Position numbers and translations under genes: made by a program. 64,000 nt of DNA from an uncultured Planctomycetia bacterium (GTDB taxonomy: Bacteria > Planctomycetota > Planctomycetia > Pirellulales > Thermoguttaceae): the NCBI GenBank assembly GCA_963719005.1, contig CAVRAR010000014.1, forward strand, positions 1,392,901 to 1,456,900, read 5' to 3'. Of this stretch, positions 143 to 19,113 are shown piece by piece. The notes under the pieces were generated by a model. The model worked only from the letters and a program-made list of their open reading frames with translations. It ran no database searches and was not told the DNA's origin. Within the stretch, counting starts at the first letter, position 1. Each line of letters starts with the position of its first letter.

Positions 143-1222
143 GTGGGTGACGGTCTAGTTGACGGAGATTGTCGTCGGTGGCATTATGAGACGTGGCAAG
201 CGACAGCGTCTCTGCCGCGTCTCTCCGCTGTGAGTAAGTTAGGATGCCAAAGATACCCGTCGGGAACACGTTTCTCAAACGATCAGCGCCTCCGGCCCTG
301 TTTGACCAACTTCCTCCGGTGGGTCTGCGGCATCGAAATTCAAAAGTGTGAAACGCCGGCGTCGCCGCAGGTATTCTATACCCATCCCAACGGAACCCTG
401 TGGGTTGGCGACAGCGTCGACTGGTTAGAGTCCTTGAAACCGGCATCCGTGGACCTGATCTTCGCCGATCCGCCCTACAACATCGGCAAGGCCGATTGGG
501 ATGAGTTTGACTCCCACGACGCCTATATCGAATGGTCGCTCCGATGGATCGAACTCGCTTCCCGAGTCCTGAAGCCGCACGGCAGTCTCTATGTTTGCGG
601 TTTCTCCGAAATCCTGGCCGACCTGCGGCGTCCGGCCGCGGAGTTTTTCGCCGGCTGTAAGTGGTTGGTCTGGTTCTATAAGAATAAGGCAAATCTGACA
701 AAGGACTGGGGACGTTCCCACGAGTCCATCCTTCACTATCGCAAGAGCCGCAAGACAACCTTCAACGTAGACGACGTACGGATTCCCTACGGCAGGCACA
801 CGCTGAAGTACCCCGTTCACCCCCAAGCCGAATCGAGCCAATACGGCGGCGGCAAGCCAGCCGGGGAAGATTGGCAACCGCATCCGCACGGTGCGAAGCC
901 GAAGGATGTTTTTGAGATTCCAGTCACGAGCAATGGGATGGCCGAGAAAACGCCACACCCAACGCAGAAGCCCGAGGAATTGATCCGGAAGCTCATTATT
1001 GCTTCCTCGAACGAAGGCGATTTGGTGGTCGATCCCTTTTCTGGGTCTGGAACCACTCTCGTTTGTGCGGAGCAACTCAATCGTAAATGGGCGGGATGCG
1101 ACCTCAATGCGGAGTACTGCTCCTGGGCCGTGATGCGCTTGGAACAGGTGCCCTCTCGAACCGTGGAGGAGTGGCTCGAATTGGACCGGAAAACCGCGGC
1201 CCGCAGGGAAAGCATCCGATGA
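143..1222 (+). CDS. DNA methyltransferase, beta-class (N6-adenine or N4-cytosine)
   Basis: DPPYN motif (..SVDLIFADPPYNIG..) early in the domain and FSGSGTT (motif I) near the C-terminus is the beta-class arrangement. Real start is probably a non-ATG codon around 300-350, because the N-terminal 60-70 aa of the ORF look like read-through. The stop overlaps the downstream ATG (ATGA). Confidence 0.8.
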   Translation: MGDGLVDGDCRRWHYETWQATASLPRLSAVSKLGCQRYPSGTRFSNDQRLRPCLTNFLRWVCGIEIQKCETPASPQVFYTHPNGTLWVGDSVDWLESLKPASVDLIFADPPYNIGKADWDEFDSHDAYIEWSLRWIELASRVLKPHGSLYVCGFSEILADLRRPAAEFFAGCKWLVWFYKNKANLTKDWGRSHESILHYRKSRKTTFNVDDVRIPYGRHTLKYPVHPQAESSQYGGGKPAGEDWQPHPHGAKPKDVFEIPVTSNGMAEKTPHPTQKPEELIRKLIIASSNEGDLVVDPFSGSGTTLVCAEQLNRKWAGCDLNAEYCSWAVMRLEQVPSRTVEEWLELDRKTAARRESIR

Positions 1223-9435: not shown

Positions 9436-10495
9436 ATGCCCCGCATTCCGCCGAACGTTGATCTGAACGAAACCGGGCCGCCGATCCCGGGGCTGATCGG
9501 CTCGGGACCGGCGATGGAACACGTCTACCGGCTGACGCGGCAGGTCGCCCGGTCGAACGCCTCGGTGCTGCTGCTCGGCGAGACGGGCACCGGCAAGGAA
9601 CTGATCGCCAAGGCGATTCACCGCCTCAGCCCGCGCGGCAGCGGCCCCTTCATCCGCGTCAACTGCGGGGCGCTCGCCGAAAATCTGCTGGAGAGCGAGT
9701 TGTTCGGGCACGTCCGCGGGGCGTTCACCGGCGCTGATCGACAACCGCACCGGACGGTTCGAGGCCGCACACACCGGCACCGTCTTCCTCGACGAAGTCA
9801 ACTCGACCAGTCCCAAGCTCCAGGTCAAACTGCTCCGCGTTTTGCAGGAGCACGAGTTCGAGCGCGTCGGCGACACGCAAACCATCCGCGTCGATACCCG
9901 CGTGATCGCCGCGAGCAACTGCGACCTGCTGGAAGAGACCGAGGCGGGCCGTTTCCGCGAAGATCTCTACTATCGGCTGAACGTGATAACGATCTACCTG
10001 CCGCCCTTGCGCGAGCGGCGCGAAGACATTCCATCGCTGGTCGGCTATTTTCTGAAGATTTACAACGAAGAGAACCTGCGGCACGTGCCGCACGTCGAGC
10101 CCGCCGCCATGCAGGCGTTGCAGGATTACTCGTGGCCGGGCAACGTGCGGGAATTGCAGAACTACATCGAGCGCGCGGTCGTCTTGGCCCCCGGCGATGA
10201 ATTGACCCGCGACCTGCTGCCCGAGGCGGTGTTGGGCGGCCGGCCGCGCCGCATCGGCCGCCTGCGGGCCGCCGACGTGGAAACGCTCGCCTCGGAACTG
10301 GTGCAGCAGGGCATCGAGACCGCCGGCGTCTCGGCCGAGAACCTCTACGCCACGGTGGTCAATCGCGTCGAGCGCGAGTTGATCGTCCAGGTGATGGCCG
10401 CCTGCGACAACGTGCAAATCAAAGCCGCCGAGCGCCTCGGCATCAACCGAAACACGCTGCACAAGAAGCTCAATGAATATGGGCTGGAGAAGTGA
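9436..10495 (+). CDS. sigma-54-dependent transcriptional activator with no N-terminal sensor/receiver domain, frameshifted
   Basis: Walker [25 protein letters not shown] motif, then after a frame change near 9725-9842 ..[21 protein letters not shown] and a C-terminal Fis-type HTH (..[15 protein letters not shown]). Confidence 0.85.
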
Positions 10496-10506: not shown

Positions 10507-11703
10507 ATGTATCTCAGCCGATTCGGTGTGAAGAACTACAAGTGTCTCGGCGATATCGACATCCCGCTGACGCCGATTCACGTGCTGATTGGGCAGAATG
10601 ACTGCGGAAAGACGAGCTTGCTGGAAGCGATGGCGGCGTTCTACTCAACTGGGGAGAAGCCCGTGTCAGAGGTCTTTCCTGAGCCGTGGGCGGGGCCGGA
10701 ACTTGTCCGTCACGGAGCGCGAGAACGGCGTGTTGAACTGTGGGGCGAATGGGCAAACCTCGCGGCAGGCGATCTCTCTTCGGCGTTTCCGACGTTTCGC
10801 TACGGTCTGTCCGTGGATTTTCCGCCTCCTGACCATCGTTCTCTCCACACAAGGAATGGATGGACCGAGACGAATGGTGAAAGACACCCGTTTCCCCCGG
10901 GGCAAGCCCTACGCGATTCTCTCGGCGAGGATCGCGTGAGAAACGAAGCGAGTGCACTTTCGATGGTCCTGATACCGGCGCACCAATACGCACTTGACGC
11001 GAGTCAAATGGCGCTGCCGGCGGGTTTTGATTCCTTGCGCAGATTTCGCCTTGCTCCGGACGGATTTGGTTTGGCGACACTCCTTGACGACATTCTCAGT
11101 TTCGACCCAAACCGATTTCTTCAAATTCAAGGAGAGTTTTGCGGTTTCTTTCCGCAATTCCGAAAAGTTCAACTAGAAACGGAGTACGGCATTGATCGCA
11201 CGGTAACAGCAGACGGGCTACCTCAATCGTCGAGGGTAACGGGCAAAGGCATTTACTTGGAGATGAACTCCGGCCAGAGGGTTCGCGCTCGCCACGCCTC
11301 TGACGGAGCGATTCTATTCCTCGGGCTCCTTGCTCTGGCGCATTCACCCCAACAGCCAGGCTCACTCTTATTGGAGGAGCCTGAGAACGGCGTATACCCG
11401 ATGCGGCTGGGGCAGATTATCAAGCTACTGAAACAGATGGTGACTCGTACCGAGGGCGTGCAGTTCCCGCAGATTGTAATAACGACGCACTCGCCCTACG
11501 TGCTGAGTTTCTTTGAGCCAGAGGAGGTAACGCTACTTAGTCGCATGTCGGGAGAGCCGGATGCTCCCGTCCGCGCCCGGCCGCTCCGCGACGCTCCGAA
11601 CATCCGCGAACGATTAGGCAACGATTTCTATTTGGGCGAACTTTGGTATAACCTGAGTGAAGGAGAACTGTTCGGTGACGAGCCGCGCCAAAGTTGTGAT
11701 TGA
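10507..11703 (+). CDS. ABC-type (AAA_21/AAA_15-like) ATPase, defense-associated family
   Basis: Walker A GQNDCGKTSLLEAM, Walker B/D-loop LLLEEPENGVYP, H-loop ITTHSPYVL. Start is 12 nt after the sigma-54 activator stop. About 55% GC. Confidence 0.75.
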   Translation: MYLSRFGVKNYKCLGDIDIPLTPIHVLIGQNDCGKTSLLEAMAAFYSTGEKPVSEVFPEPWAGPELVRHGARERRVELWGEWANLAAGDLSSAFPTFRYGLSVDFPPPDHRSLHTRNGWTETNGERHPFPPGQALRDSLGEDRVRNEASALSMVLIPAHQYALDASQMALPAGFDSLRRFRLAPDGFGLATLLDDILSFDPNRFLQIQGEFCGFFPQFRKVQLETEYGIDRTVTADGLPQSSRVTGKGIYLEMNSGQRVRARHASDGAILFLGLLALAHSPQQPGSLLLEEPENGVYPMRLGQIIKLLKQMVTRTEGVQFPQIVITTHSPYVLSFFEPEEVTLLSRMSGEPDAPVRARPLRDAPNIRERLGNDFYLGELWYNLSEGELFGDEPRQSCD

Positions 11704-12361
11704 AGTGATCGGCGAGGGTCGCACGGACGTGGGAATGGCTGGAACCTCCGACGAACCGAGCGCCCCGTTGCCGCCGAACAAAGGCGTAGTGCCGATTATC
11801 GTTCATGCACTTTGCGGAAAGCCGGATACAATGCTTGTTGTGCGACGGCAGTATGCGTCCCTCCATGGAAAAGGGAAGACACGGGCGCAGAAAGTCCACT
11901 TCGCCAAACGCCAGGCACTCTACAACAACTCTACGGGGGTCGTCTTCCTGCTCGACTCGGAAGGTGATCTTAAAGGAAGAACGAGAGAACTGATCGAGGG
12001 GCGCGACCGCCAGTATCAAGAATATCCTGCGGCAGTCGGTGTCGCTCATCCTTGCATCGAAGCGTGGCTCTTGGCCGATGCCGCCGCTGTCGCGGAAGGT
12101 TTGAATCTCGCAAAGACGCCGGCCGTCCCCGCGAAGCCGGAAGAGTTGCCGGCGCCCTGCCACGACGCGAAGAAGAATCCAAAGGCGATGTTGAGAGAGA
12201 TCGCAAAACGGGCAATCTCGGTCAGCGACAAAGACCGCATCGCCGCTATCGCGGATATATCAGTGCTTCGACAGCATTGTCCGCTTGGCTTTTCCCCGTT
12301 CGCCGATGAAGTCGAAAAGCACATTCGTCCTTTATTCCAAAAACCATGCTCTCCGGCGTAG
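11675..12361 (+). CDS. DUF4276/RloB-like (Toprim-fold) protein, putative nuclease partner of the ATPase
   Basis: N-terminal ..KVVIEVIGEGRTD.. (EGxTE/D Toprim-like glutamate) and a later ..VVFLLDSEGD.. (DxD-like). GTG start overlaps the ATPase 3' end. Family assignment is from motif memory, not a search. Confidence 0.45.
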   Translation: MTSRAKVVIEVIGEGRTDVGMAGTSDEPSAPLPPNKGVVPIIVHALCGKPDTMLVVRRQYASLHGKGKTRAQKVHFAKRQALYNNSTGVVFLLDSEGDLKGRTRELIEGRDRQYQEYPAAVGVAHPCIEAWLLADAAAVAEGLNLAKTPAVPAKPEELPAPCHDAKKNPKAMLREIAKRAISVSDKDRIAAIADISVLRQHCPLGFSPFADEVEKHIRPLFQKPCSPA

Positions 12362-13314
12362 GCACCGTCTGTTTCGCTTCCAGCTACGCGATCGCGTGGG
12401 CGCTGGAAATCTCGCGGCTGCTGTTCCGCAGCGGCGTGCGCGGGGCGATCATGCTCGCATTCGCCGCCGCGGGATTGATCGCTCATACGGCATTCCTCTA
12501 TTATCGGGCCGTCAAGGTGGTCCATGCGCAAGGCGCACCGCTGTCGAGCGAAAGGGATTGGTTCCTCGTGGCGGCTTGGGCGCTGGTCGTGGTCTATCTT
12601 TGCCTGGCAGTTCTGCGTCCGAAGATCCCTTTCGGACTGTTTCTGCTTCCGTTGGCTCTCGGGCTGATCGGCGCGGCGACTTTTTGGGCCCCGACCGAAC
12701 CGCTGGCACGCGAGCCGGCGTCGAAAATCTGGGGGGCGATCCACGGCGTCTCGATCGTGCTGGCAGTCGTCTCCGTGCTCGTCGGATTCATGGCCGGCCT
12801 GATGTACCTCGGCCAATCGCGACGGCTGAAACACAAACACCTCCCCGCCGGCCGCCTGCGGCTGCCCAGCCTGGAATGGCTGGAAAAGGCCAACAGCCAC
12901 GCGATCGTTGCCTCGATGGTGATGCTCGGCGTCGGCGTTTTATCGGGCATGATATTGAATCTGATCAATAGCGGCAACGAAGCCGCACGTCTGCGATGGA
13001 ACGATCCGGTCGTGTTGAGCACCTGGTTGATGTTTCTTTGGCTGCTGGCAGCGGTGGCGGCCATCGCGATCTACCGCCCCGCCCGAAAAGGCCGCAAAGT
13101 CGCCTACCTCACGGTCGCCAGCTTCGTCTTCCTCGTCATCATGCTCGCCGCCGGCCTGCTGATGGATAGCCGGCATTGGGGAAGAGGAGAAGGGAAGAAT
13201 GCTGAATGCGGAATGATGAATGATGAATATTCGCAGGCGTCGGCTTCACGTAATTCATCATTCATCACTCATCATTCATCATTCATCGTTCCCCCCGGAG
13301 GCCGGCCATGTTAG
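12346..13314 (+). CDS. cytochrome c assembly family membrane protein (HemX/CcsA-like), upstream of hemA
   Basis: About 8 predicted TM helices. ..LMYLGQSRRLKHKHL.. is typical of the Cytochrom_C_asm family. hemX-hemA synteny as in Bacillus. The real C-terminus probably lies before the palindrome at 13195-13288. Confidence 0.55.
   Translation: MLSGVGTVCFASSYAIAWALEISRLLFRSGVRGAIMLAFAAAGLIAHTAFLYYRAVKVVHAQGAPLSSERDWFLVAAWALVVVYLCLAVLRPKIPFGLFLLPLALGLIGAATFWAPTEPLAREPASKIWGAIHGVSIVLAVVSVLVGFMAGLMYLGQSRRLKHKHLPAGRLRLPSLEWLEKANSHAIVASMVMLGVGVLSGMILNLINSGNEAARLRWNDPVVLSTWLMFLWLLAAVAAIAIYRPARKGRKVAYLTVASFVFLVIMLAAGLLMDSRHWGRGEGKNAECGMMNDEYSQASASRNSSFITHHSSFIVPPGGRPC
13195..13288. repeat. AT-rich palindromic element (GAATGATGAATGATGAA ... 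TTCATCATTCATCATTC), family E
   Basis: Near-perfect inverted repeat arms around a roughly 30-nt centre. The same element recurs at 59078-59168. Confidence 0.7.
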
Positions 13315-14579
13315 CGCGCGTGGTCGGTTGCAGCCATCACGGCACGTCGATTGACCTGCGCGAACGGCTGGCGTTCTCGCATGAACAAGTGCGCGAGGCG
13401 CTCGATCATTGGCGGCGGGTGTTTCCCGGCGTCGAGGCGGTGCTGCTTTCGACCTGCAATCGCGTGGAGATTTACGCCGCCACCGAGCATGAAACGGAGC
13501 CGGGGCTCGATCAGATCGCCGGATTCCTCGCCCGCTTTCACGGCCTCGATCCCGGCGAAATCGCCGAGCATCTTTACCAATACAGCGACGAGGCGGCGGT
13601 GCAGCACCTGTTCACCGTGGCGTCGAGCCTCGACAGCATGGTGCTCGGCGAGACGCAGATCCTCGCCCAGGTGAAAGAGGCGTATCAGACGGCCACCGAG
13701 CAGGACAACACCGGGCCGCTGCTGCACGCCACTTTCCAGGCGGCGCTCCGCGTGGCACGGCGAGTGGCCAAGGAGACGGCGATCCACCAGCGCCGCGTCA
13801 GCATTCCCAGCGTGGCGGTCGCCGATTTCGCCCGGCAGGTCTTCGAGCGCTTCGACGACAAGCACGCCCTGGTCGTCGGGGCGGGCGAGATGGCCGAGGA
13901 ATGCCTGCGCTACCTCCGCGATGAAGGCATCCAACGGGTGACGGTCGTCAATCGGCATTTTCAACGGGCGGCCGAGTTGGCCCAGCGATGGAAGGGCGAG
14001 GCGGCGCCGTGGGAGAATCTCGCCGCGTCGCTGGCCGCCGCCGATCTCGTGGTCAGCACGACCGGCGCGACGGAACCGGTGGTCACCGCCGAGCGCTTCG
14101 CCGCGGTCGAAGCATCGCGGTTTCAGCGGCCGCTGCTGATTCTCGACCTCGCCGTGCCCCGCGACTTCGAGCCCTCGATCGGCGATCGGCCCAACGTGTA
14201 TCTCTATTCGATCGACGATCTGCAAGCGGTTTGCAATCGGAATCGCGCGGCGCGCGATCGGGAATTGCCCGCGGCGATGCACATCGTCGAACAGGAGACG
14301 ATCCGCTTCATCGCCGAGATGCGCCGGCACGCCGTCGGTCCGGTGATCGAGCGGCTCAGACAGGGCTGGCAGAAGCCGAAGGAGGAGGAGTTGCAGCGGC
14401 TGCTGCACAAGCTGCCGGAGTTGGACGATCGCGCCCGCGACGAAATCCGCCGCTCGTTCGAGCGGCTGGTGAACAAGCTGTTGCACCCGCCGCTGGAGTC
14501 GCTCCGCGACGAGTCGCGGCACGGCGTGCCGCGGGCGCTGTTGGACGCGCTGGCGCGGCTGTTCCAGTTGAAGGATTGA
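13308..14579 (+). CDS. hemA: glutamyl-tRNA reductase
   Basis: ..LSTCNRVEIYA.. catalytic-Cys motif and an NADPH-binding ..ALVVGAGEMAE... 423 aa. Confidence 0.9.
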   Translation: MLARVVGCSHHGTSIDLRERLAFSHEQVREALDHWRRVFPGVEAVLLSTCNRVEIYAATEHETEPGLDQIAGFLARFHGLDPGEIAEHLYQYSDEAAVQHLFTVASSLDSMVLGETQILAQVKEAYQTATEQDNTGPLLHATFQAALRVARRVAKETAIHQRRVSIPSVAVADFARQVFERFDDKHALVVGAGEMAEECLRYLRDEGIQRVTVVNRHFQRAAELAQRWKGEAAPWENLAASLAAADLVVSTTGATEPVVTAERFAAVEASRFQRPLLILDLAVPRDFEPSIGDRPNVYLYSIDDLQAVCNRNRAARDRELPAAMHIVEQETIRFIAEMRRHAVGPVIERLRQGWQKPKEEELQRLLHKLPELDDRARDEIRRSFERLVNKLLHPPLESLRDESRHGVPRALLDALARLFQLKD

Positions 14580-14615: not shown

Positions 14616-14644
14616 TTGTCGATTTGCAGATTATGAGGTAGAAT
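14616..14644 (+). promoter_or_regulatory. candidate sigma-70-type promoter (TTGTCG, 17-nt spacer, TAGAAT) for the ATPase/PIN module
   Basis: Seen directly in AT-richer intergenic DNA about 35 nt upstream of the 14679 start. Confidence 0.25.
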
Positions 14645-14678: not shown

Positions 14679-15992
14679 ATGCCGATAAACACGATACAAT
14701 TGCGGGACTTCAAGTGCTTCGCAGACAGCGGAGATATACCGTTTGCGCCATTGACGATCATCTTCGGTCGCAACAATACCGGCAAGTCCTCGATTCTGCA
14801 AAGCATCCTGTTGCTCCGGCAGACGTTGGATTCTCCAGAGTATGGTCCTAGGCTTGATCTTCGGGGGCCGCTCTATCAGGCAGGAAGTTACGCTGATATC
14901 GTGCATCAGCACAAAGCCAGCCAAAACGTCGTAATGGAGTTTCATGTTACTCCGAACAACGGCGCACCTGCAAAGATCGAACTGGAGTTCAGTTCGGATG
15001 AGCCCCAGCCAGCCAGATTGGTGCGTCTGAAGGTACATGGTCGAGCCGCCGATCCGCTGGAGATTAAGCGTGGTCGTGGGCGTGGCGGCCCATATGAATT
15101 GTTTATTGGCGAAGAGTCTCAGGGTTCCGAAACGGATGCACTCTTTCGATTTCCTCAAAGCGGTTTCTTTCCTCTTATAGGCCCTGAACCAGCCCGGCGA
15201 GGTCGCCCAAACAAGAAGCACGAAGAGATTCGCGACTTTACTCGGGAAAGCCTACAGAGCTTTGAGATCATTCTAAGGTCAATACGAGCGGTTGGGGCTT
15301 TTCGGCAGCAGCCAATTCGCCGTTACGAATACCAGGGACGCGCTTCGGAAACGATAGACGCCGCCGGTCGATCTGTTGTCGACGCGTTGATTGAAGATTC
15401 CTTGCGGCGGGGACAGAAGCGTGGCGAGTTGTTCAAGTCTGTCAATCGGTGGCTCAAGGCCGTCGGGCGCGTTCGAATTCTTCCATTCAGACGAATTTCC
15501 AAAACGGCGCGTATTTTCGAGGTCCGCCTGAGGGACACAGACTCGGGAAGATGGGCTAATTTTGCCGACGTGGGCTTTGGAATAGGCCAAGCGTTCCCCG
15601 TTTTCGTGGAAGGCTTGCGGACTCCTGAAGGTGGCACTTTCATTGTCCAGGAACCGGAGATTCACTTGCACCCAGATGCGCAACTCGGAATGGCGGACTT
15701 TCTTGTTAGCCTTGCAAAGAGCGGTCGGCACGTCATCGCCGAAACACACAGCGAGAACCTGCTTCTTCGGATCAGACGATTAATGACCGGTAAGACACCG
15801 ATGTTTAACCGTAAGGATGTGAGTATCCTTTATGTGGCAAAGCGTCTCGACGGAACCAGCCACGTCACTCCGTTGGAAATCGACGAGATGGCACAGATCA
15901 GGAATTGGCCAAAAGGGTTCATGGAGGAAGCTACCGATGAGCGAATGGCAATTCTTAGAAGGATGGCTGGTGACTCCCCAAAGGGACGCTAA
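14679..15992 (+). CDS. ABC-type (AAA_21-like) ATPase, second copy of the defense-associated family
   Basis: Walker A FGRNNTGKSSILQSI, Walker B FIVQEPEIHLHPD, H-loop AETHSENLL. About 52% GC. Confidence 0.75.
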   Translation: MPINTIQLRDFKCFADSGDIPFAPLTIIFGRNNTGKSSILQSILLLRQTLDSPEYGPRLDLRGPLYQAGSYADIVHQHKASQNVVMEFHVTPNNGAPAKIELEFSSDEPQPARLVRLKVHGRAADPLEIKRGRGRGGPYELFIGEESQGSETDALFRFPQSGFFPLIGPEPARRGRPNKKHEEIRDFTRESLQSFEIILRSIRAVGAFRQQPIRRYEYQGRASETIDAAGRSVVDALIEDSLRRGQKRGELFKSVNRWLKAVGRVRILPFRRISKTARIFEVRLRDTDSGRWANFADVGFGIGQAFPVFVEGLRTPEGGTFIVQEPEIHLHPDAQLGMADFLVSLAKSGRHVIAETHSENLLLRIRRLMTGKTPMFNRKDVSILYVAKRLDGTSHVTPLEIDEMAQIRNWPKGFMEEATDERMAILRRMAGDSPKGR

Positions 15993-15994
15993 GT

Positions 15995-16435
15995 ATGCCG
16001 AGTGAAGTCGTTATCGATACGACCGTACTGCAAAAGGCAAATGCGCCTATTCTCAATCCGCCGGGGAAGCGGTCACGATTTGCACGGCGGCTTAGACTTC
16101 TGAACAGTATACGAACTGGGGACATTGCCGTTCTCTTCAGCAAACGATTGCTTACCGAATACCAAAAACAGGTCAAGAGCCCTAGAAACGACTTCGTCAA
16201 GCTGTTCTTTGAGCTTCTCACCGATCCAGGGCGGGCGATCTACAACTGGCCAAAGTGGTCGGGGCAAGAGTCTGAGAAGGCGCGACACTGCCGATTTCCA
16301 CGGGAGGACTATCATGTCCTTCGCACGGCCATCCGCCCCAATGCGACAACCATCGTGACTGAGGAGGATCGCATGCTTCGGAGAGACGACTGCATCTACC
16401 GCGAATTTCGAGTCCATGTTTGTGACATTCCTTGA
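15995..16435 (+). CDS. PIN-like domain protein, putative nuclease partner of the ATPase
   Basis: Starts 3 nt after the ATPase stop. N-terminal VVIDTTVL with a conserved Asp, then ..REDYHVLRTAI.. and ..TTIVTEEDRML.. carry the further acidic residues spaced as in PIN domains. Confidence 0.4.
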   Translation: MPSEVVIDTTVLQKANAPILNPPGKRSRFARRLRLLNSIRTGDIAVLFSKRLLTEYQKQVKSPRNDFVKLFFELLTDPGRAIYNWPKWSGQESEKARHCRFPREDYHVLRTAIRPNATTIVTEEDRMLRRDDCIYREFRVHVCDIP

Positions 16436-16462: not shown

Positions 16463-19113
16463 ATGAGTTGCGCAGGAGGCGCGTCTCCGATGCTCGACCC
16501 ACAACTCAGCACCGGATTGCCGGGATTGGACCGCGTCTTGCGCGGCGTTCTGCCGGGCGACAATTTCGTCTGGCAGGTGGAATCGCTGGCCGATTTCATG
16601 CCTTTTGCCAAGGCGTTCTGCGAGGCGGCGCTGGCCGAGGGCAAGAAGCTGGTCTATTTCCGCTTCGCCGACCACGAGCCGCTCGTGCCGGAATCGCTCG
16701 AGGCCGACGTCCACGTGCTGCGCGGCAACGAGGAGTTCGAGCCGTTCGTGACCGAGGTTCATCGGGTCGTTCAAGCGGCGGGAGCGGGAACGCATTTCGT
16801 CTTCGATTGCCTTTCGAACCTCGTCGACGTGTGGTTCAGCGACCGGATGCTCGGCAATTTCTTCATGCTGACTTGCCCGGCCATCTCCGAGTGCCAATCG
16901 CTGGCCTACTTCCCGCTGATCCGCCATCGGCACAGTTTTCACGCCTCGGGCCCGATCACCGAAACGACGCAGATCCTGATCGACGTGTTTCGCCATCGGG
17001 GGCGATTCTACATCCATCCGACGAAGGTCGAGCACCGTTTCTCGTCGACGATGAACATGCTGCACCGCTGGGACGGCGACCGCTTCCTGCCGGTGATGGA
17101 AAGCTCGACGACCGCCGAGGTGCTCACCTCGCGGCCCTGGGCAGGGCTGGAATCCGTTCGCCTCCGCCCCGGCGAGTGGACGCGCACGTTCTTCCACGCC
17201 GAGGAGGTTTCCGACAAGGTCCGCCGCGGAAAGCTGCCGGCCGAAGCGGCGCGGCAACTGCTGCCCGAGTTGCTGCGGATGGTGATTTCGCGCGACCAGC
17301 GCGTCATGCCGCTTGGTCGAACGCTATTTCACGCTCCCCGACGTGGTGGAAATCTGGAAACGCATGATCGGCTCCGGGCTGATCGGCGGAAAGTCGGTCG
17401 GCATGTTGTTGGCCCGGGCTATCCTGAGAAACTCCGACCGACGCTGGAACGATCTGCTCGAAGCCCACGATTCGTTCTTCATCGGCTCGAACGTGTTTTG
17501 CTCGTTCATGGTCGAAAACGGCTGCTGGTGGCTGCGGCAGAAGCAGCGCGACCCCGCCACGTTTCTCGACGGCATCGAGGAGACCCGGCGGCTCGTGCTG
17601 GCGGGCCAATTTCCCCAGTATCTCGTCGACGAGTTCGCCGAAATGCTCGATTATTTCGGGCAATCGCCGATCATCGTCCGTTCCAGCAGCCTGCTGGAAG
17701 ACGCCTACGGCAACGCCTTCTCCGGCAAGTACGAGAGCGTGTTCTGCGCCAACCAGGGGCCGCACTCGAAGCGATTGCAGGAATTCCTCTCGGCCGTCAA
17801 GACGATCTACGCCAGCACGATGAGCGAAAAGGCCCTGCGATACCGCGCCCAGCGCGGGCTGTTGGATCGCGACGAGCAGATGTCGCTGCTGGTGCAGCGG
17901 GTCTCCGGCGCCTGCTACGACACCCTGTTCTTCCCGCAAATCGCCGGCGTCGGTCTCTCGCGCAACCCTTACGTCTGGAACGAGTGCATCGATCCCGAGC
18001 GCCGGCGTAGTGCGGCTGGTGTTCGGCTTGGGCACGCGGGCGGTCGATCGCTCGGACGACGACTACACGCGGATCGTCGCCCTGAACGCGCCCGATCGCC
18101 GCCCGGAGGGCGATCTGGATTGCGTGCGGCAGTTCAGCCAGCGCAAGGTCGATCTGATCGATCTGGAGGCGAATCATCTGGTGTCGCGCGATTTCGTCGA
18201 CGTGGCCGCCGCCGGCCCTCATCTGCCGCTGCATATTTTCGCTTCCGCCGACGACGCCGATACCTCCGGCGGTGAAGAGGGGAGCGAGACGCCGAGCAAT
18301 CCGAACCTGGTTCTCACTTTCGACGAGCTGCTCTCGAAGACCCCCTTCATCGGCGACATGCGCGAGATGCTGCGCGTGCTTCAGACGGCTTACGACTATC
18401 CGGTCGATATCGAGTTCACCGCGAATTTCCCCGCGTCGGATCGCTACAAGATCAATCTCGTGCAGTGCCGGCCGCTGCAAGTGGCCGCCGACGGCGGAAC
18501 CGTCGAATTGCCCGAGTCGCTCGATCGCAACGATTGCATTCTCGAAGCCCACGGCGCGGTGATCGGCAAGAGCCGCGTCAACCTGATCGACCGGCTGGTG
18601 TACGTGGCGCCGTCGGTTTACGGGCAGCTTCCGATCCGCGACCGTTACAGCGTGGCTCGGCTGATCGGCCGGCTGTTGCACCTCGACGAGCCGAAGCCGC
18701 CGGAGCAGATCATGCTGATCGGGCCGGGCCGCTGGGGCACCACCACGCCTTCGCTGGGCGTGCCCGTCTCCTTCGCCGAAATCGACACCGCCACCGTGCT
18801 CTGCGAGATCGTCGCCATGCGCGAAGACCTCGTGCCCGACGTCTCGTTGGGAACGCATTTCTTCAACGACCTGGTCGAGATGGACATTCTCTATCTGGCG
18901 CTGTTTCCGGGCCGCAAGGGCAACTCCTGGAACTATGCGTTCTTCGAGCAGACGCCGAACCGCCTGGCGGAACTGCTGCCCAACGACGGGCGATGGTCGG
19001 AAGTGGTCCGGGTGATCGACATGCCCCGCGACGGCGCCACGCTGAAACTCAACGCCAACGCCTTGACGCAGCAGGTGCTCTGCTATCTGGACAAGTCGGG
19101 CCACGTCGTCTAA
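16463..19113 (+). CDS. large protein fusing a degenerate KaiC/RecA-like domain (no Walker A) to a PEP-synthase/pyruvate-phosphate-dikinase N-terminal ATP-grasp domain (PPDK_N) and an unknown C-terminal domain; two frameshifts
   Basis: N-terminus ..LSTGLPGLDRVLRGVLPGDNFVWQVES.. is KaiC-like but lacks GxxxxGKT. PPDK_N motifs ..GGKSVGMLLA.., ..IIVRSSSLLEDAYGNAFSGKYESV.. and ..VDIEFTANF..INLVQCRPLQV... Frame changes near 17300 and 18000. Confidence 0.55.

What the first reader, a model, noticed from the sequence alone, without database searches (positions are those of the whole stretch)
14679..16435. Second ABC-type ATPase, paired with a PIN-like protein: candidate unnamed defense module
The 437-aa ATPase (Walker A FGRNNTGKSS, Walker B IVQEPEIHLHPD, H-loop ETHSENL) belongs to the same family as 10507-11703. 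Its tightly coupled 146-aa partner has PIN-like acidic residues (VVIDTTVL.., ..DYHVLRTAI.., ..TIVTEEDRML). I do not recognise an AAA_21 ATPase with a small PIN partner as a named defense system. The module is lower in GC, has its own candidate promoter, and sits 3 kb from the other ATPase module.
Basis: partly seen in the sequence, partly recalled or inferred. Interest (0 to 1): 0.65.

Follow-up and report, generated by a model that had tools for sequence, protein, structure and literature searches.

The report
ABC ATPase plus PIN nuclease defence pair
These are two tightly linked genes, an ABC-type ATPase and a small PIN ribonuclease, and they form a divergent relative of the phage-defence pair HEC-03 (itself related to Menshen), so this is a new branch of a known kind rather than an unnamed system.

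Summary
Two abutting + strand ORFs sit in a low-GC insert (0.53-0.55, flanks 0.62-0.70) between hemA and a PPDK_N-domain gene. They are a 437-aa ABC ATPase (14679-15992) and a 146-aa protein (15995-16435).

The ATPase belongs to the DUF3696 clade of OLD-type ABC ATPases. It matches three PADLOC models over their full length: NsnB (9.7e-63), PDC-M55A and HEC-03B.

The pair is a conserved, self-contained unit. Every PIN homologue with upstream sequence follows this ATPase, in at least five phyla (mostly Planctomycetota). Flanks vary and no third gene is conserved.

"Unnamed" is wrong. HEC-03 (Payne et al., bioRxiv 2024) has this same architecture and protects against phage, with both genes required. 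Menshen NsnB is predicted to clamp an inactive PIN domain of NsnC with the same DUF3696 tail.

The pair here is a divergent branch. The ATPases are 27% identical, and the PIN is invisible to the HEC-03 PIN model and linked only through an intermediate.

The likely mechanism is an ATPase-gated PIN RNase acting in abortive infection; this is inferred. Interest is modest.

The parts
14616..14644 (+). Sigma-70-like hexamer pair (TTGTCG, 17 nt, TAGAAT) in the 99-bp gap after hemA. It is a possible promoter only.
   Evidence: 1 site found against 1.1 expected in shuffled sequence, so it is not above chance.
14679..15992 (+). ABC ATPase of the DUF3696 (NsnB / HEC-03 / PDC-M55) clade, 437 aa.
   Evidence: Pfam AAA_15 5.5e-22, AAA_21 1.3e-18, DUF3696 1.7e-5. 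PADLOC NsnB 9.7e-63, PDC-M55A 4.4e-57, HEC-03B 2.7e-52. AlphaFold model pLDDT 87.3; Foldseek top hits are OLD, Rad50, GajA and PtuA.
14766..14789 (+). Walker A / P-loop, G30-S37 (GRNNTGKS).
   Evidence: N32, N33, G35, K36 and S37 are invariant in 42 homologues.
15573..15590 (+). Signature-like GFGIGQ (residues 299-304). This is the GxG replacement of the ABC SGG motif that was described for NsnB.
   Evidence: G299 and Q304 are invariant; F300, G301, I302 and G303 are nearly invariant. The motif is described in PMC12065111.
15639..15677 (+). Non-canonical Walker B, FIVQEPEIHLHPD (residues 321-333). Q324-E325 stands in place of the usual D-E.
   Evidence: E325 through D333 are invariant and Q324 is nearly invariant. 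HEC-03 and PDC-M55A have E-Q, remote relatives have Q-Q, and NsnB has E-N.
15741..15755 (+). H-loop, ETHSE (residues 355-359).
   Evidence: E355, H357 and S358 are invariant.
15810..15944 (+). DUF3696 C-terminal tail (residues 378-422): a beta hairpin, the NWPxGFM motif and a terminal helix. It is the proposed docking site for the PIN protein.
   Evidence: Pfam DUF3696 matches residues 378-422. D402, Q406, W410, P411, F414, E421 and R422 are invariant. The same NWP(E/K)(G/N)FF motif occurs in HEC-03 and PDC-M55A ATPases. The docking role is inferred from the AlphaFold 3 NsnB4-NsnC2 model in PMC12065111.
15995..16435 (+). Stand-alone VapC-like PIN protein, 146 aa; the predicted RNase effector.
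16016..16018 (+). Codon for D8, the first proposed catalytic acid (the DT motif at the end of strand 1).
   Evidence: D8 and T9 are invariant in 30 homologues. hhalign places it against the D/E-T-N motif of the HEC-03 PIN.
16157..16159 (+). Codon for E55, the second proposed catalytic acid (EY motif in the helix after strand 2).
   Evidence: E55 and Y56 are invariant. hhalign places it against the invariant E52-Y53 of the HEC-03 PIN family.
16307..16309 (+). Codon for D105, the third proposed catalytic acid (ED.HVLRTA helix).
   Evidence: Nearly invariant. Kept as HD.HLLAAA in remote family members.
16361..16363 (+). Codon for E123, the fourth proposed catalytic acid (TE after strand 4).
   Evidence: Invariant. 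Kept as (V/T)TE in remote members.

Best explanation
This is a self-contained, horizontally acquired two-gene anti-phage module of the 'DUF3696 ABC ATPase + PIN nuclease' type. It is a divergent, mainly planctomycetal sister branch of HEC-03 and a relative of the NsnB-NsnC core of Menshen.

**Proposed mechanism**
1. The ATPase forms an ABC-type dimer or tetramer.
2. Its conserved C-terminal DUF3696 tails hold the small PIN protein in an inactive state.
3. A phage-derived cue, sensed by the variable inserts of the ATPase, changes its nucleotide state.
4. That change releases or activates the PIN.
5. The PIN cuts cellular or phage RNA (tRNA, rRNA or mRNA, as VapC enzymes do), which stops growth and aborts the infection.

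**Shown here**
- The domain identities.
- The conserved catalytic-type residues.
- The strict gene pairing, and the absence of any third conserved gene.
- Purifying selection on both genes.
- Homology to the HEC-03 and NsnB ATPases.

**Inferred**
- The defence function, from HEC-03 experiments.
- Tail-to-PIN docking, from the published NsnB-NsnC model.
- RNA as the target, and the nature of the trigger.
For: **Family assignment**
- The ATPase hits PADLOC NsnB (211 bits), PDC-M55A (192 bits) and HEC-03B (176 bits) over their full lengths.
- It is 27-31% identical over about 390-450 residues to bona fide HEC-03 ATPases, E 4e-42 to 2e-46.
- It shares the NWPxGF(F/M) DUF3696 tail and a non-canonical Walker B with them.
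- Its fold is that of an ABC ATPase of the OLD/GajA/PtuA/Rad50 type.

**PIN identity**
- One of those hits is 6A7V, the structure used to identify the HEC-03 PIN.
- D8, E55 and E123 are invariant and D105 nearly so, and all are kept in remote relatives.

**Pairing**
- 24 of 24 loci with upstream sequence have the ATPase directly before the PIN.
- All-against-all comparison of flanking ORFs in 20 loci finds only these two families conserved.
- The remote PIN relatives P0360 and P0411, and the archaeal intermediate P0429, also follow AAA_15/AAA_21 ATPases.
- Taking ATPase homologues as the starting point instead also finds the PIN downstream in all three loci checked. It is intact in L035 and L036 and rearranged in L034.

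**Link between the PIN families**
- P0429 is hit by this PIN family's profile (E 5.9e-4 across 1.84 billion proteins).
- It is also hit by the HEC-03 PIN profile (33 bits; HEC-03A 5e-9).

**Function of the known relative**
- HEC-03 reduces plaquing by orders of magnitude, needs both genes, and was toxic when induced with IPTG.

**Horizontal origin**
- Low GC, scattered phyla and unrelated flanks.

**Selection**
- dN/dS is 0.08 for both genes.
Against: - There is no experiment on this subfamily.
- The PIN and its 29 homologues give no hit to any PADLOC model, including the HEC-03 PIN model, even at E <= 10.
- The direct profile-profile match of the two PIN families is weak: E 0.0012, probability 20%, N-terminal 72 columns only.
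- The ATPase scores far below true HEC-03 members on the HEC-03 model: 176 bits against 282-765.
- The ATPase-PIN interaction could not be modelled here, because no complex prediction or model coordinates were available.
- The locus is not in a dense defence island. Apart from the second ATPase module and a type II methyltransferase 13 kb away, ten neighbouring ORFs gave no significant defence hit.
- No copy was found on viral contigs, and no PIN copy on plasmids.
- The Walker B Q-E arrangement differs from the E-Q of HEC-03, so the nucleotide cycle may differ.
Confidence: 0.62

Rival explanations
1. It is a toxin-antitoxin or addiction module with no dedicated phage-defence role. The PIN is a VapC-like toxin and the ATPase acts as a protein antitoxin that stabilises the genomic islet.
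For: - The fold is VapC-like.
- NCBIfam gives a weak match to a PIN-family TA toxin model (TIGR00305, E 6.6e-4, below its cutoff).
- The genes are tightly coupled.
- The related HEC-03 is toxic on induction.
- The locus is not in a dense defence island.
Against: - There is no VapB-type small DNA-binding antitoxin.
- The partner is a 437-aa ABC ATPase with conserved nucleotide-binding motifs, which is more machinery than neutralisation alone would need.
- The closest characterised relative protects against phage, and needs both genes to do so.
- TA function and abortive-infection defence are not mutually exclusive.
Confidence: 0.15
2. The PIN is a non-catalytic adaptor, like the inactive 'inPIN' domain of Menshen NsnC or the Cas9 partner PcrIIC1. 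The real effector would be elsewhere, or the ATPase itself would act on nucleic acid.
For: - In Menshen, all 35 NsnC N-terminal PIN-like families lack catalytic residues and are predicted to dock on the DUF3696 tails.
Against: - This family keeps the four acidic positions, and remote relatives keep them too.
- No further domain or conserved gene is present that could serve as an effector.
Confidence: 0.1
3. It is a decayed Menshen system that has lost NsnA and the toxin half of NsnC.
For: The best PADLOC hit of the ATPase is NsnB, at 9.7e-63.
Against: - All 20 loci compared lack any DUF262-type or other conserved third gene.
- All 107 family representatives are short (164 aa or less; the full-length ones about 140-165 aa) stand-alone proteins.
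- Both genes are under strong purifying selection.
- True HEC-03 ATPases also score 177-257 bits on the NsnB model, so that hit does not discriminate.
Confidence: 0.04
4. It is a housekeeping nucleic-acid repair or processing pair: a RecF/Rad50-like ATPase with a PIN nuclease.
For: - The N-terminus gives weak matches to RecF, Rad50 and SMC models.
- The pair sits among core genes (hemA and ccsA-like).
Against: - Those matches cover only the P-loop region (residues 1-46).
- The distribution is patchy across phyla, with different neighbours each time.
- GC is low relative to the flanks.
- The family is small, with 107 representatives among 1.84 billion proteins.
Confidence: 0.04

Closest known systems
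HEC-03 (Hma-embedded candidate 03; Payne, Hughes, Fineran and Jackson, bioRxiv 10.1101/2024.01.29.577857; PADLOC models HEC-03A = PIN, HEC-03B = ATPase)
   Same: - It is a two-gene unit in the same order, ATPase then PIN, with overlapping or abutting genes.
- The ATPase is a 'DUF3696 domain-containing' ABC ATPase, collinear over its full length with the one here (27-31% identity).
- Both share the xxPEIHLHP Walker B region, the ETHSE/ESHSE H-loop and the NWPxGFF tail.
- The partner is a protein of about 150-160 aa with a VapC-like PIN fold, also compared with 6A7V.
- The two PIN families share the DT(N/T)V..AN(G/A), xEY and (N/G)Dxx.FF motifs.
   Different: - The PIN families are barely alignable: no HEC-03A hit for 30 members, and hhalign E 0.0012.
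- The fourth acid is E in a TE motif here, but D in NALD.DW in HEC-03.
- Walker B is Q-E here and E-Q in HEC-03.
- The ATPase scores 176 bits on HEC-03B, against 282-765 bits for true members.
- Hosts are mainly Planctomycetota metagenome-assembled genomes rather than Pseudomonadota.
- This pair is not embedded in an Hma system.
- Some HEC-03 loci add an RNA ligase gene; none is present here.
Menshen (NsnA-NsnB-NsnC; Millman et al. 2022; analysed in PMC12065111)
   Same: - The ATPase is NsnB-like: best PADLOC hit at 211 bits, a DUF3696 tail, a GxG signature-like motif and a non-canonical Walker B.
- The downstream partner has a PIN fold, as does the N-terminal domain of NsnC. That domain is predicted to be clamped by two DUF3696 tails.
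   Different: - There is no NsnA (ParB-DUF262) in any locus.
- The partner is a single-domain PIN that keeps its acidic residues, not an inactive PIN fused to a C-terminal toxin.
- Here the PIN would itself be the effector.
PARIS (AriA-AriB) and Septu (PtuA-PtuB)
   Same: - The working logic is the same: an OLD-type ABC ATPase oligomer binds a small nuclease and controls it.
- In PARIS the released nuclease cleaves tRNA (as summarised).
- The predicted ATPase fold matches PtuA and GajA.
   Different: - The effector here is a PIN, not a Toprim (AriB) or HNH (PtuB) nuclease.
- HMM scores to AriA, PtuA and GajA are low and partial.
- Those ATPases have no DUF3696 tail.
VapBC type II toxin-antitoxin systems
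   Different: There is no VapB antitoxin. The upstream gene is an ABC ATPase, and sequence identity to VapC proteins is 8-19%.
PDC-M55 (untested PADLOC candidate)
   Same: The ATPase scores 192 bits on PDC-M55A, and the tail motif is the same.
   Different: The PDC-M55 partner is a protein of about 350 aa (PDC-M55B, as in Bacillus plasmid locus L033). The PIN here does not match it.

Membership tests
HEC-03 | ABC ATPase of the DUF3696 clade (AAA_15/AAA_21 core plus an NWPxGFF C-terminal tail) | tested here: met
   Pfam DUF3696 1.7e-5 at residues 378-422. The tail motif is shared with HEC-03 ATPases. 27-31% identity over the full length.
HEC-03 | ATPase recognised by the HEC-03 ATPase model at the level of true members | tested here: inconclusive
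   HEC-03B gives 2.7e-52 (176 bits), but it ranks third behind NsnB (211) and PDC-M55A (192). Bona fide and divergent HEC-03 ATPases score 282-765 bits, with HEC-03B ranked first.
HEC-03 | Small VapC-like PIN protein encoded immediately downstream of the ATPase | tested here: met
HEC-03 | PIN recognised by the HEC-03 PIN model (PADLOC HEC-03A) | tested here: not met
   0 of 30 family members hit HEC-03A at E <= 10. True members score 84-284 bits and an archaeal intermediate scores 34 bits. Only a remote link exists: hhalign E 0.0012 and the intermediate P0429.
HEC-03 | Both genes required for phage protection | not testable with these tools
   Shown for the Pseudomonas cichorii system only.
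Menshen | NsnA (ParB-DUF262 plus ParBDB) gene preceding the ATPase | tested here: not met
   The upstream gene is hemA. No third conserved family was found in 20 loci.
Menshen | NsnB-type ABC ATPase with a DUF3696 tail | tested here: met
   PADLOC NsnB 9.7e-63, covering positions 2-342 of the 345-position model.
Menshen | NsnC: an N-terminal inactive PIN plus a C-terminal toxin domain | tested here: not met
   The partner is 146 aa with one domain, and its acidic residues are kept. All 107 family representatives are 164 aa or shorter.
PIN domain superfamily (VapC-like) | PIN fold with conserved acidic active-site residues | tested here: met
   The fold is supported, and the residues D8/E55/D105/E123. 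Their clustering in space was not measured, because no model coordinates were available.
VapBC toxin-antitoxin | Small VapB antitoxin gene upstream of the PIN | tested here: not met
   The upstream gene is the 437-aa ATPase.
Septu / Gabija / PARIS | Partner nuclease of HNH type (PtuB), a fused Toprim plus GajB helicase, or a Toprim AriB | tested here: not met
   The partner is a PIN. AriA, GajA and PtuA models match only in part and with lower scores. NCBIfam PtuA gives 29 bits against a cutoff of 500.
PDC-M55 | PDC-M55B partner protein | tested here: not met
   The PIN has no PADLOC hit. PDC-M55B is found in a 352-aa Bacillus protein.

The most novel reading that the evidence does not exclude
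This clade, mainly in Planctomycetota, may be a distinct and currently undetectable defence family in which a catalytically active stand-alone PIN docks on the DUF3696 tail.

Together with HEC-03 it would represent the ancestral 'ATPase + active PIN' state. Menshen would then have derived its inactive PIN adaptor and its swappable toxins from that state.

Its Q-E Walker B (E-Q in HEC-03, E-N in NsnB, Q-Q in remote relatives) would reflect a different nucleotide-gating cycle. The mosaic N-terminal half of the PIN seen between near-identical modules (L012 and L013) would reflect an arms race at the target-recognition or inhibitor-binding surface.
Probability: 0.25. Interest if true: 0.5.

Novelty: new member of a known kind. 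Interest (0 to 1): 0.3.

Why it matters
- It extends the validated HEC-03 type of defence (ABC ATPase plus PIN) into Planctomycetota and other poorly studied phyla.
- It exposes a blind spot. PADLOC-style models would see only an orphan NsnB-like ATPase and miss the system.
- It links two pieces of work that do not cite each other on this point: HEC-03, with an active PIN, and Menshen, with an inactive PIN docked on the DUF3696 tail. That suggests a simple evolutionary series for this ATPase clade.
- No step of the mechanism is shown here, and the architecture is already described, so the value is incremental.

Tried and rejected
**Searches that found nothing**
- PADLOC scans of the PIN alone, and of all 30 family members at E <= 10, gave nothing relevant.
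- A sequence search of solved structures with the PIN profile gave only chance hits.
- IMG/VR viral contigs hold no relative of the PIN.
- Plasmids hold no PIN relative, only distant DUF3696 ATPases.
- A search for flanking direct or inverted repeats as an insertion signature found only short, low-identity matches.
- The promoter and terminator scan gave nothing above chance.

**Assignments considered and rejected**
- Septu, Gabija and PARIS membership: the effector is of the wrong type and the scores are low.
- A decayed Menshen system: no NsnA anywhere, and purifying selection on both genes.

**Things that could not be done**
- Krishnan et al. 2020 (ABC ATPase classification) could not be read because it is not held.
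- Prediction of the ATPase-PIN complex was not attempted. The tool returns neither coordinates nor inter-chain error, and it accepts only window or database sequences.
Full report
**1. What is in the sequence**

The + strand carries two abutting ORFs, 14679..15992 (437 aa) and 15995..16435 (146 aa). The first ends in TAA and two bases separate it from the ATG of the second.

The pair occupies a block of 0.53-0.55 GC. The flanks are 0.67 (hemA side) and 0.62-0.65 (downstream). Upstream lie a ccsA-like gene and hemA (glutamyl-tRNA reductase, 13308..14579). Downstream, 27 bases after the PIN stop, a gene with a PPDK_N domain begins.

The single sigma-70-like site in the 99-bp gap (14616-14644) is what shuffled sequence would give, so I attach no weight to it. 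No flanking repeat marks an insertion.

**2. The ATPase**

Pfam gives AAA_15 (5.5e-22) and AAA_21 (1.3e-18). It also gives a C-terminal DUF3696 match at residues 378-422.

PADLOC gives three full-length matches: NsnB of Menshen (9.7e-63, 211 bits), PDC-M55A (192 bits) and HEC-03B (176 bits). AriA, OLD, GajA and PtuA match only in part and with lower scores.

An AlphaFold model built on 42 homologues has pLDDT 87.3. Its best PDB matches are OLD, Rad50, GajA, PtuA and SMC heads, so it is an OLD-type ABC ATPase.

In 42-115 homologues the following are invariant or nearly so:
- Walker A (GxNNxGKS).
- A GFGIGQ signature-like motif.
- The H-loop (ETHSE).
- A tail motif, Q..NWPxGFMEEAT.ER.

Walker B is non-canonical. 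It reads Q324-E325-P-E-IHLHP, where D-E is expected.

The other ATPase in the window (10507-11703) is only a superfamily relative: 30% identity over 53 residues. It has no DUF3696 tail and pairs with a DUF4276 protein, which is the PADLOC HEC-01 type.

**3. The small protein is a PIN**

- It passes Pfam PIN_3 (30.0 bits, cutoff 27).
- The model built on 30 homologues has pLDDT 94.7.
- D8, T9, E55, Y56, N65 and E123 are invariant; D66, D105 and D131 are nearly so.
- By position in the secondary structure, D8, E55, D105 and E123 occupy the four classical PIN acidic sites: the end of strand 1, the helix after strand 2, the start of the helix after strand 3, and just after strand 4.
- A D-E-D-E set is what I recall for the enteric VapC enzymes. 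That is from memory, not tested here.
- The same four positions survive in family members as remote as E 1e-5.
- I could not measure whether they cluster in space, because the tools do not return coordinates.

**4. The pair is the unit**

The PIN family is small. It has 82 clusters at 90% identity and 107 representatives at 50% identity among 1.84 billion proteins. None is longer than 164 aa, and the full-length ones are about 140-165 aa.

- In all 24 loci that hold upstream sequence, the ATPase lies directly before the PIN.
- An all-against-all comparison of every ORF of at least 100 aa within 8 kb in 20 loci found only two families conserved across loci, the ATPase and the PIN. The remaining clusters seen in three or more loci were antisense shadows of these two genes, apart from one three-locus cluster of flanking ORFs.
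- Flanking genes differ from locus to locus.
- Hosts are mostly Planctomycetota metagenome-assembled genomes (Thermoguttaceae, Planctomycetaceae, Phycisphaerales, Pirellulales, Tepidisphaeraceae). Riflebacteria, Myxococcota, Gemmatimonadales and Acidobacteria also occur.
- Remote PIN relatives (P0360, P0411) also follow AAA_15/AAA_21 ATPases.
- Starting instead from ATPase homologues, the PIN is again found downstream. In L035 and L036 it was simply not called as a gene, and in L034 it is rearranged.
- Both genes are under purifying selection: dN/dS is 0.08 against L007, with dS near saturation.
- Their pairwise identities across loci correlate, r = 0.67.

**5. Comparison with what is known**

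*HEC-03.* Payne et al. (bioRxiv 10.1101/2024.01.29.577857) describe HEC-03 as an ABC ATPase with a PIN-domain partner similar to VapC. It reduced plaquing of several coliphages by orders of magnitude. Both genes were required, and it was toxic when induced with IPTG.

Their Table S2 gives the tested Pseudomonas cichorii pair. WP_025259138 is annotated 'DUF3696 domain-containing protein', and WP_025259137 (157 aa) follows it with overlapping genes, ATPase first. In PADLOC 2.0.0 the PIN model is called HEC-03A and the ATPase model HEC-03B.

The ATPase here aligns with the HEC-03 ATPase over 389 residues (27% identity, E 4e-42). It aligns with plasmid-borne HEC-03 ATPases at 26-31% identity. All share the PEIHLHP block, the H-loop and the NWPxGFF tail.

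The PINs are much further apart:
- None of 30 members of this family hits HEC-03A, even at E <= 10.
- Profile-profile comparison of the two PIN families gives E 0.0012 (probability 20%) over the N-terminal 72 columns. It does line up DT(T/N)V..AN(A/G) and the EY motif.
- An intermediate connects them. P0429 is encoded after a DUF3696 ATPase on a 1.87-Mb contig. That contig is probably archaeal, judging from the neighbouring genes for TiaS and deoxyhypusine synthase.
- P0429 is hit by this family's profile (E 5.9e-4 library-wide), by my HEC-03 PIN profile (33 bits) and by HEC-03A (5e-9). Its ATPase scores best on HEC-03B (282 bits).

*Menshen.* Li et al. (PMC12065111) show that NsnB is an ABC ATPase with a DUF3696 helix. 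NsnC starts with an inactive PIN-like domain followed by a variable toxin. AlphaFold 3 places that PIN-like domain between two DUF3696 tails of an NsnB tetramer.

Their survey was seeded on NsnA (ParB-DUF262), so NsnA-less pairs were outside its scope. The paper does not mention HEC-03.

Here NsnA is absent and the PIN is single-domain with its acids kept, so this is not Menshen. The ATPase and the PIN-on-tail logic are nonetheless shared.

*Other reports.* A 2026 BREX survey (PMC12839542) also reports OLD-type ABC ATPases paired with PIN endoRNases.

**6. Mechanism**

I propose an ATPase-gated PIN RNase. The ATPase oligomer holds the PIN through its DUF3696 tails. A phage cue alters the ATP state. 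The PIN is then released or activated and cuts RNA, which aborts the infection.

- The domain identities, conserved motifs, pairing and selection are shown here.
- The defence role is inferred from HEC-03.
- Docking is inferred from the published NsnB-NsnC model and from the strict conservation of the tail.
- RNA as the target is inferred from the VapC-like fold.
- The trigger is unknown.

One feature is worth testing. Walker B reads Q-E here, Q-Q in remote relatives of this family, E-Q in HEC-03 and PDC-M55A, and E-N in NsnB. The whole clade has therefore abandoned the canonical D-E, but in different ways.

**7. Rivals**

- A plain toxin-antitoxin role for the pair is not excluded and overlaps with abortive infection (0.15).
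- A non-catalytic adaptor PIN is argued against by the conserved acids and by the lack of any other effector (0.10).
- A decayed Menshen system and a housekeeping repair pair are both poorly supported (0.04 each).

**8. Verdict**

This is a divergent new branch of the HEC-03 / DUF3696 ABC ATPase-PIN kind, which present PADLOC models would not call. I rate it as a new member of a known kind, with interest 0.3.

Noticed in passing
window 10507-11703 and 11657-12361 (+): This is the first ATPase module. It is an AAA_15/AAA_21 ABC ATPase followed by a DUF4276 (Toprim-like) protein, with overlapping genes. It matches PADLOC HEC-01A/HEC-01B, and weakly MADS3/MADS4. HEC-01 gave no phage protection in the Payne et al. 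preprint. GC is also lower here (0.54-0.59).
   Followed up: partly
window 9436-10200 / 9842-10495; 16463-18010 / 17313-18275 / 18010-19113: Flanking genes appear frameshifted. A sigma-54 activator is split over two frames, and the PPDK_N-domain gene downstream of the PIN over three. These are either pseudogenes or indel errors of a long-read assembly. The two defence genes themselves are intact.
   Followed up: partly
L012 6417-6716 versus L013: Two modules are 93-99% identical in DNA through the ATPase (97% in protein). Identity drops to 43-68% in the first ~300 nt of the PIN gene and recovers to 80-87% in its 3' half. The N-terminal half of the PIN therefore looks mosaic or fast-evolving.
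   Followed up: partly
L031 5452-6051 and L032 5431-6132 (Rhodococcus and Aeromonas conjugative plasmids): In these bona fide HEC-03 pairs an RNA ligase family gene (PF09414) directly follows the PIN gene. This hints that the PIN damages RNA and that the damage can be repaired. No ligase is present in the window or its close relatives.
   Followed up: partly
L034 3001-4659 and 4350-4634: In one metagenomic contig the ATPase ORF is 552 aa because it reads into the C-terminal half of the PIN (residues 84-144). PIN residues 40-79 lie inverted on the other strand, so this copy is rearranged and probably dead.
   Followed up: no
L035 4344-4781; L036 4341-4769: The PIN gene is present but was not called as a gene in the source annotations. 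Surveys based on called proteins will therefore undercount this pairing.
   Followed up: no
window 143-1222 (+): This ORF matches type II DNA methyltransferase models (PADLOC MTase_II, 9.5e-66). It lies about 13 kb upstream of the pair. No adjacent restriction enzyme was looked for.
   Followed up: no
L001 1-4796 (Riflebacteria): In this locus the module lies next to an SbcCD-like pair (AAA_23 plus Metallophos), an NTP_transf_5 protein and a protein with a Cas6b_C domain. This may be a defence neighbourhood.
   Followed up: no
window 15639-15677 and homologues: The Walker B dyad varies across the DUF3696 clade. It is Q-E here, Q-Q in L028 and L029, E-Q in HEC-03 and PDC-M55A, and E-N in NsnB according to the literature. 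The following P-E is constant in every sequence compared here.
   Followed up: partly
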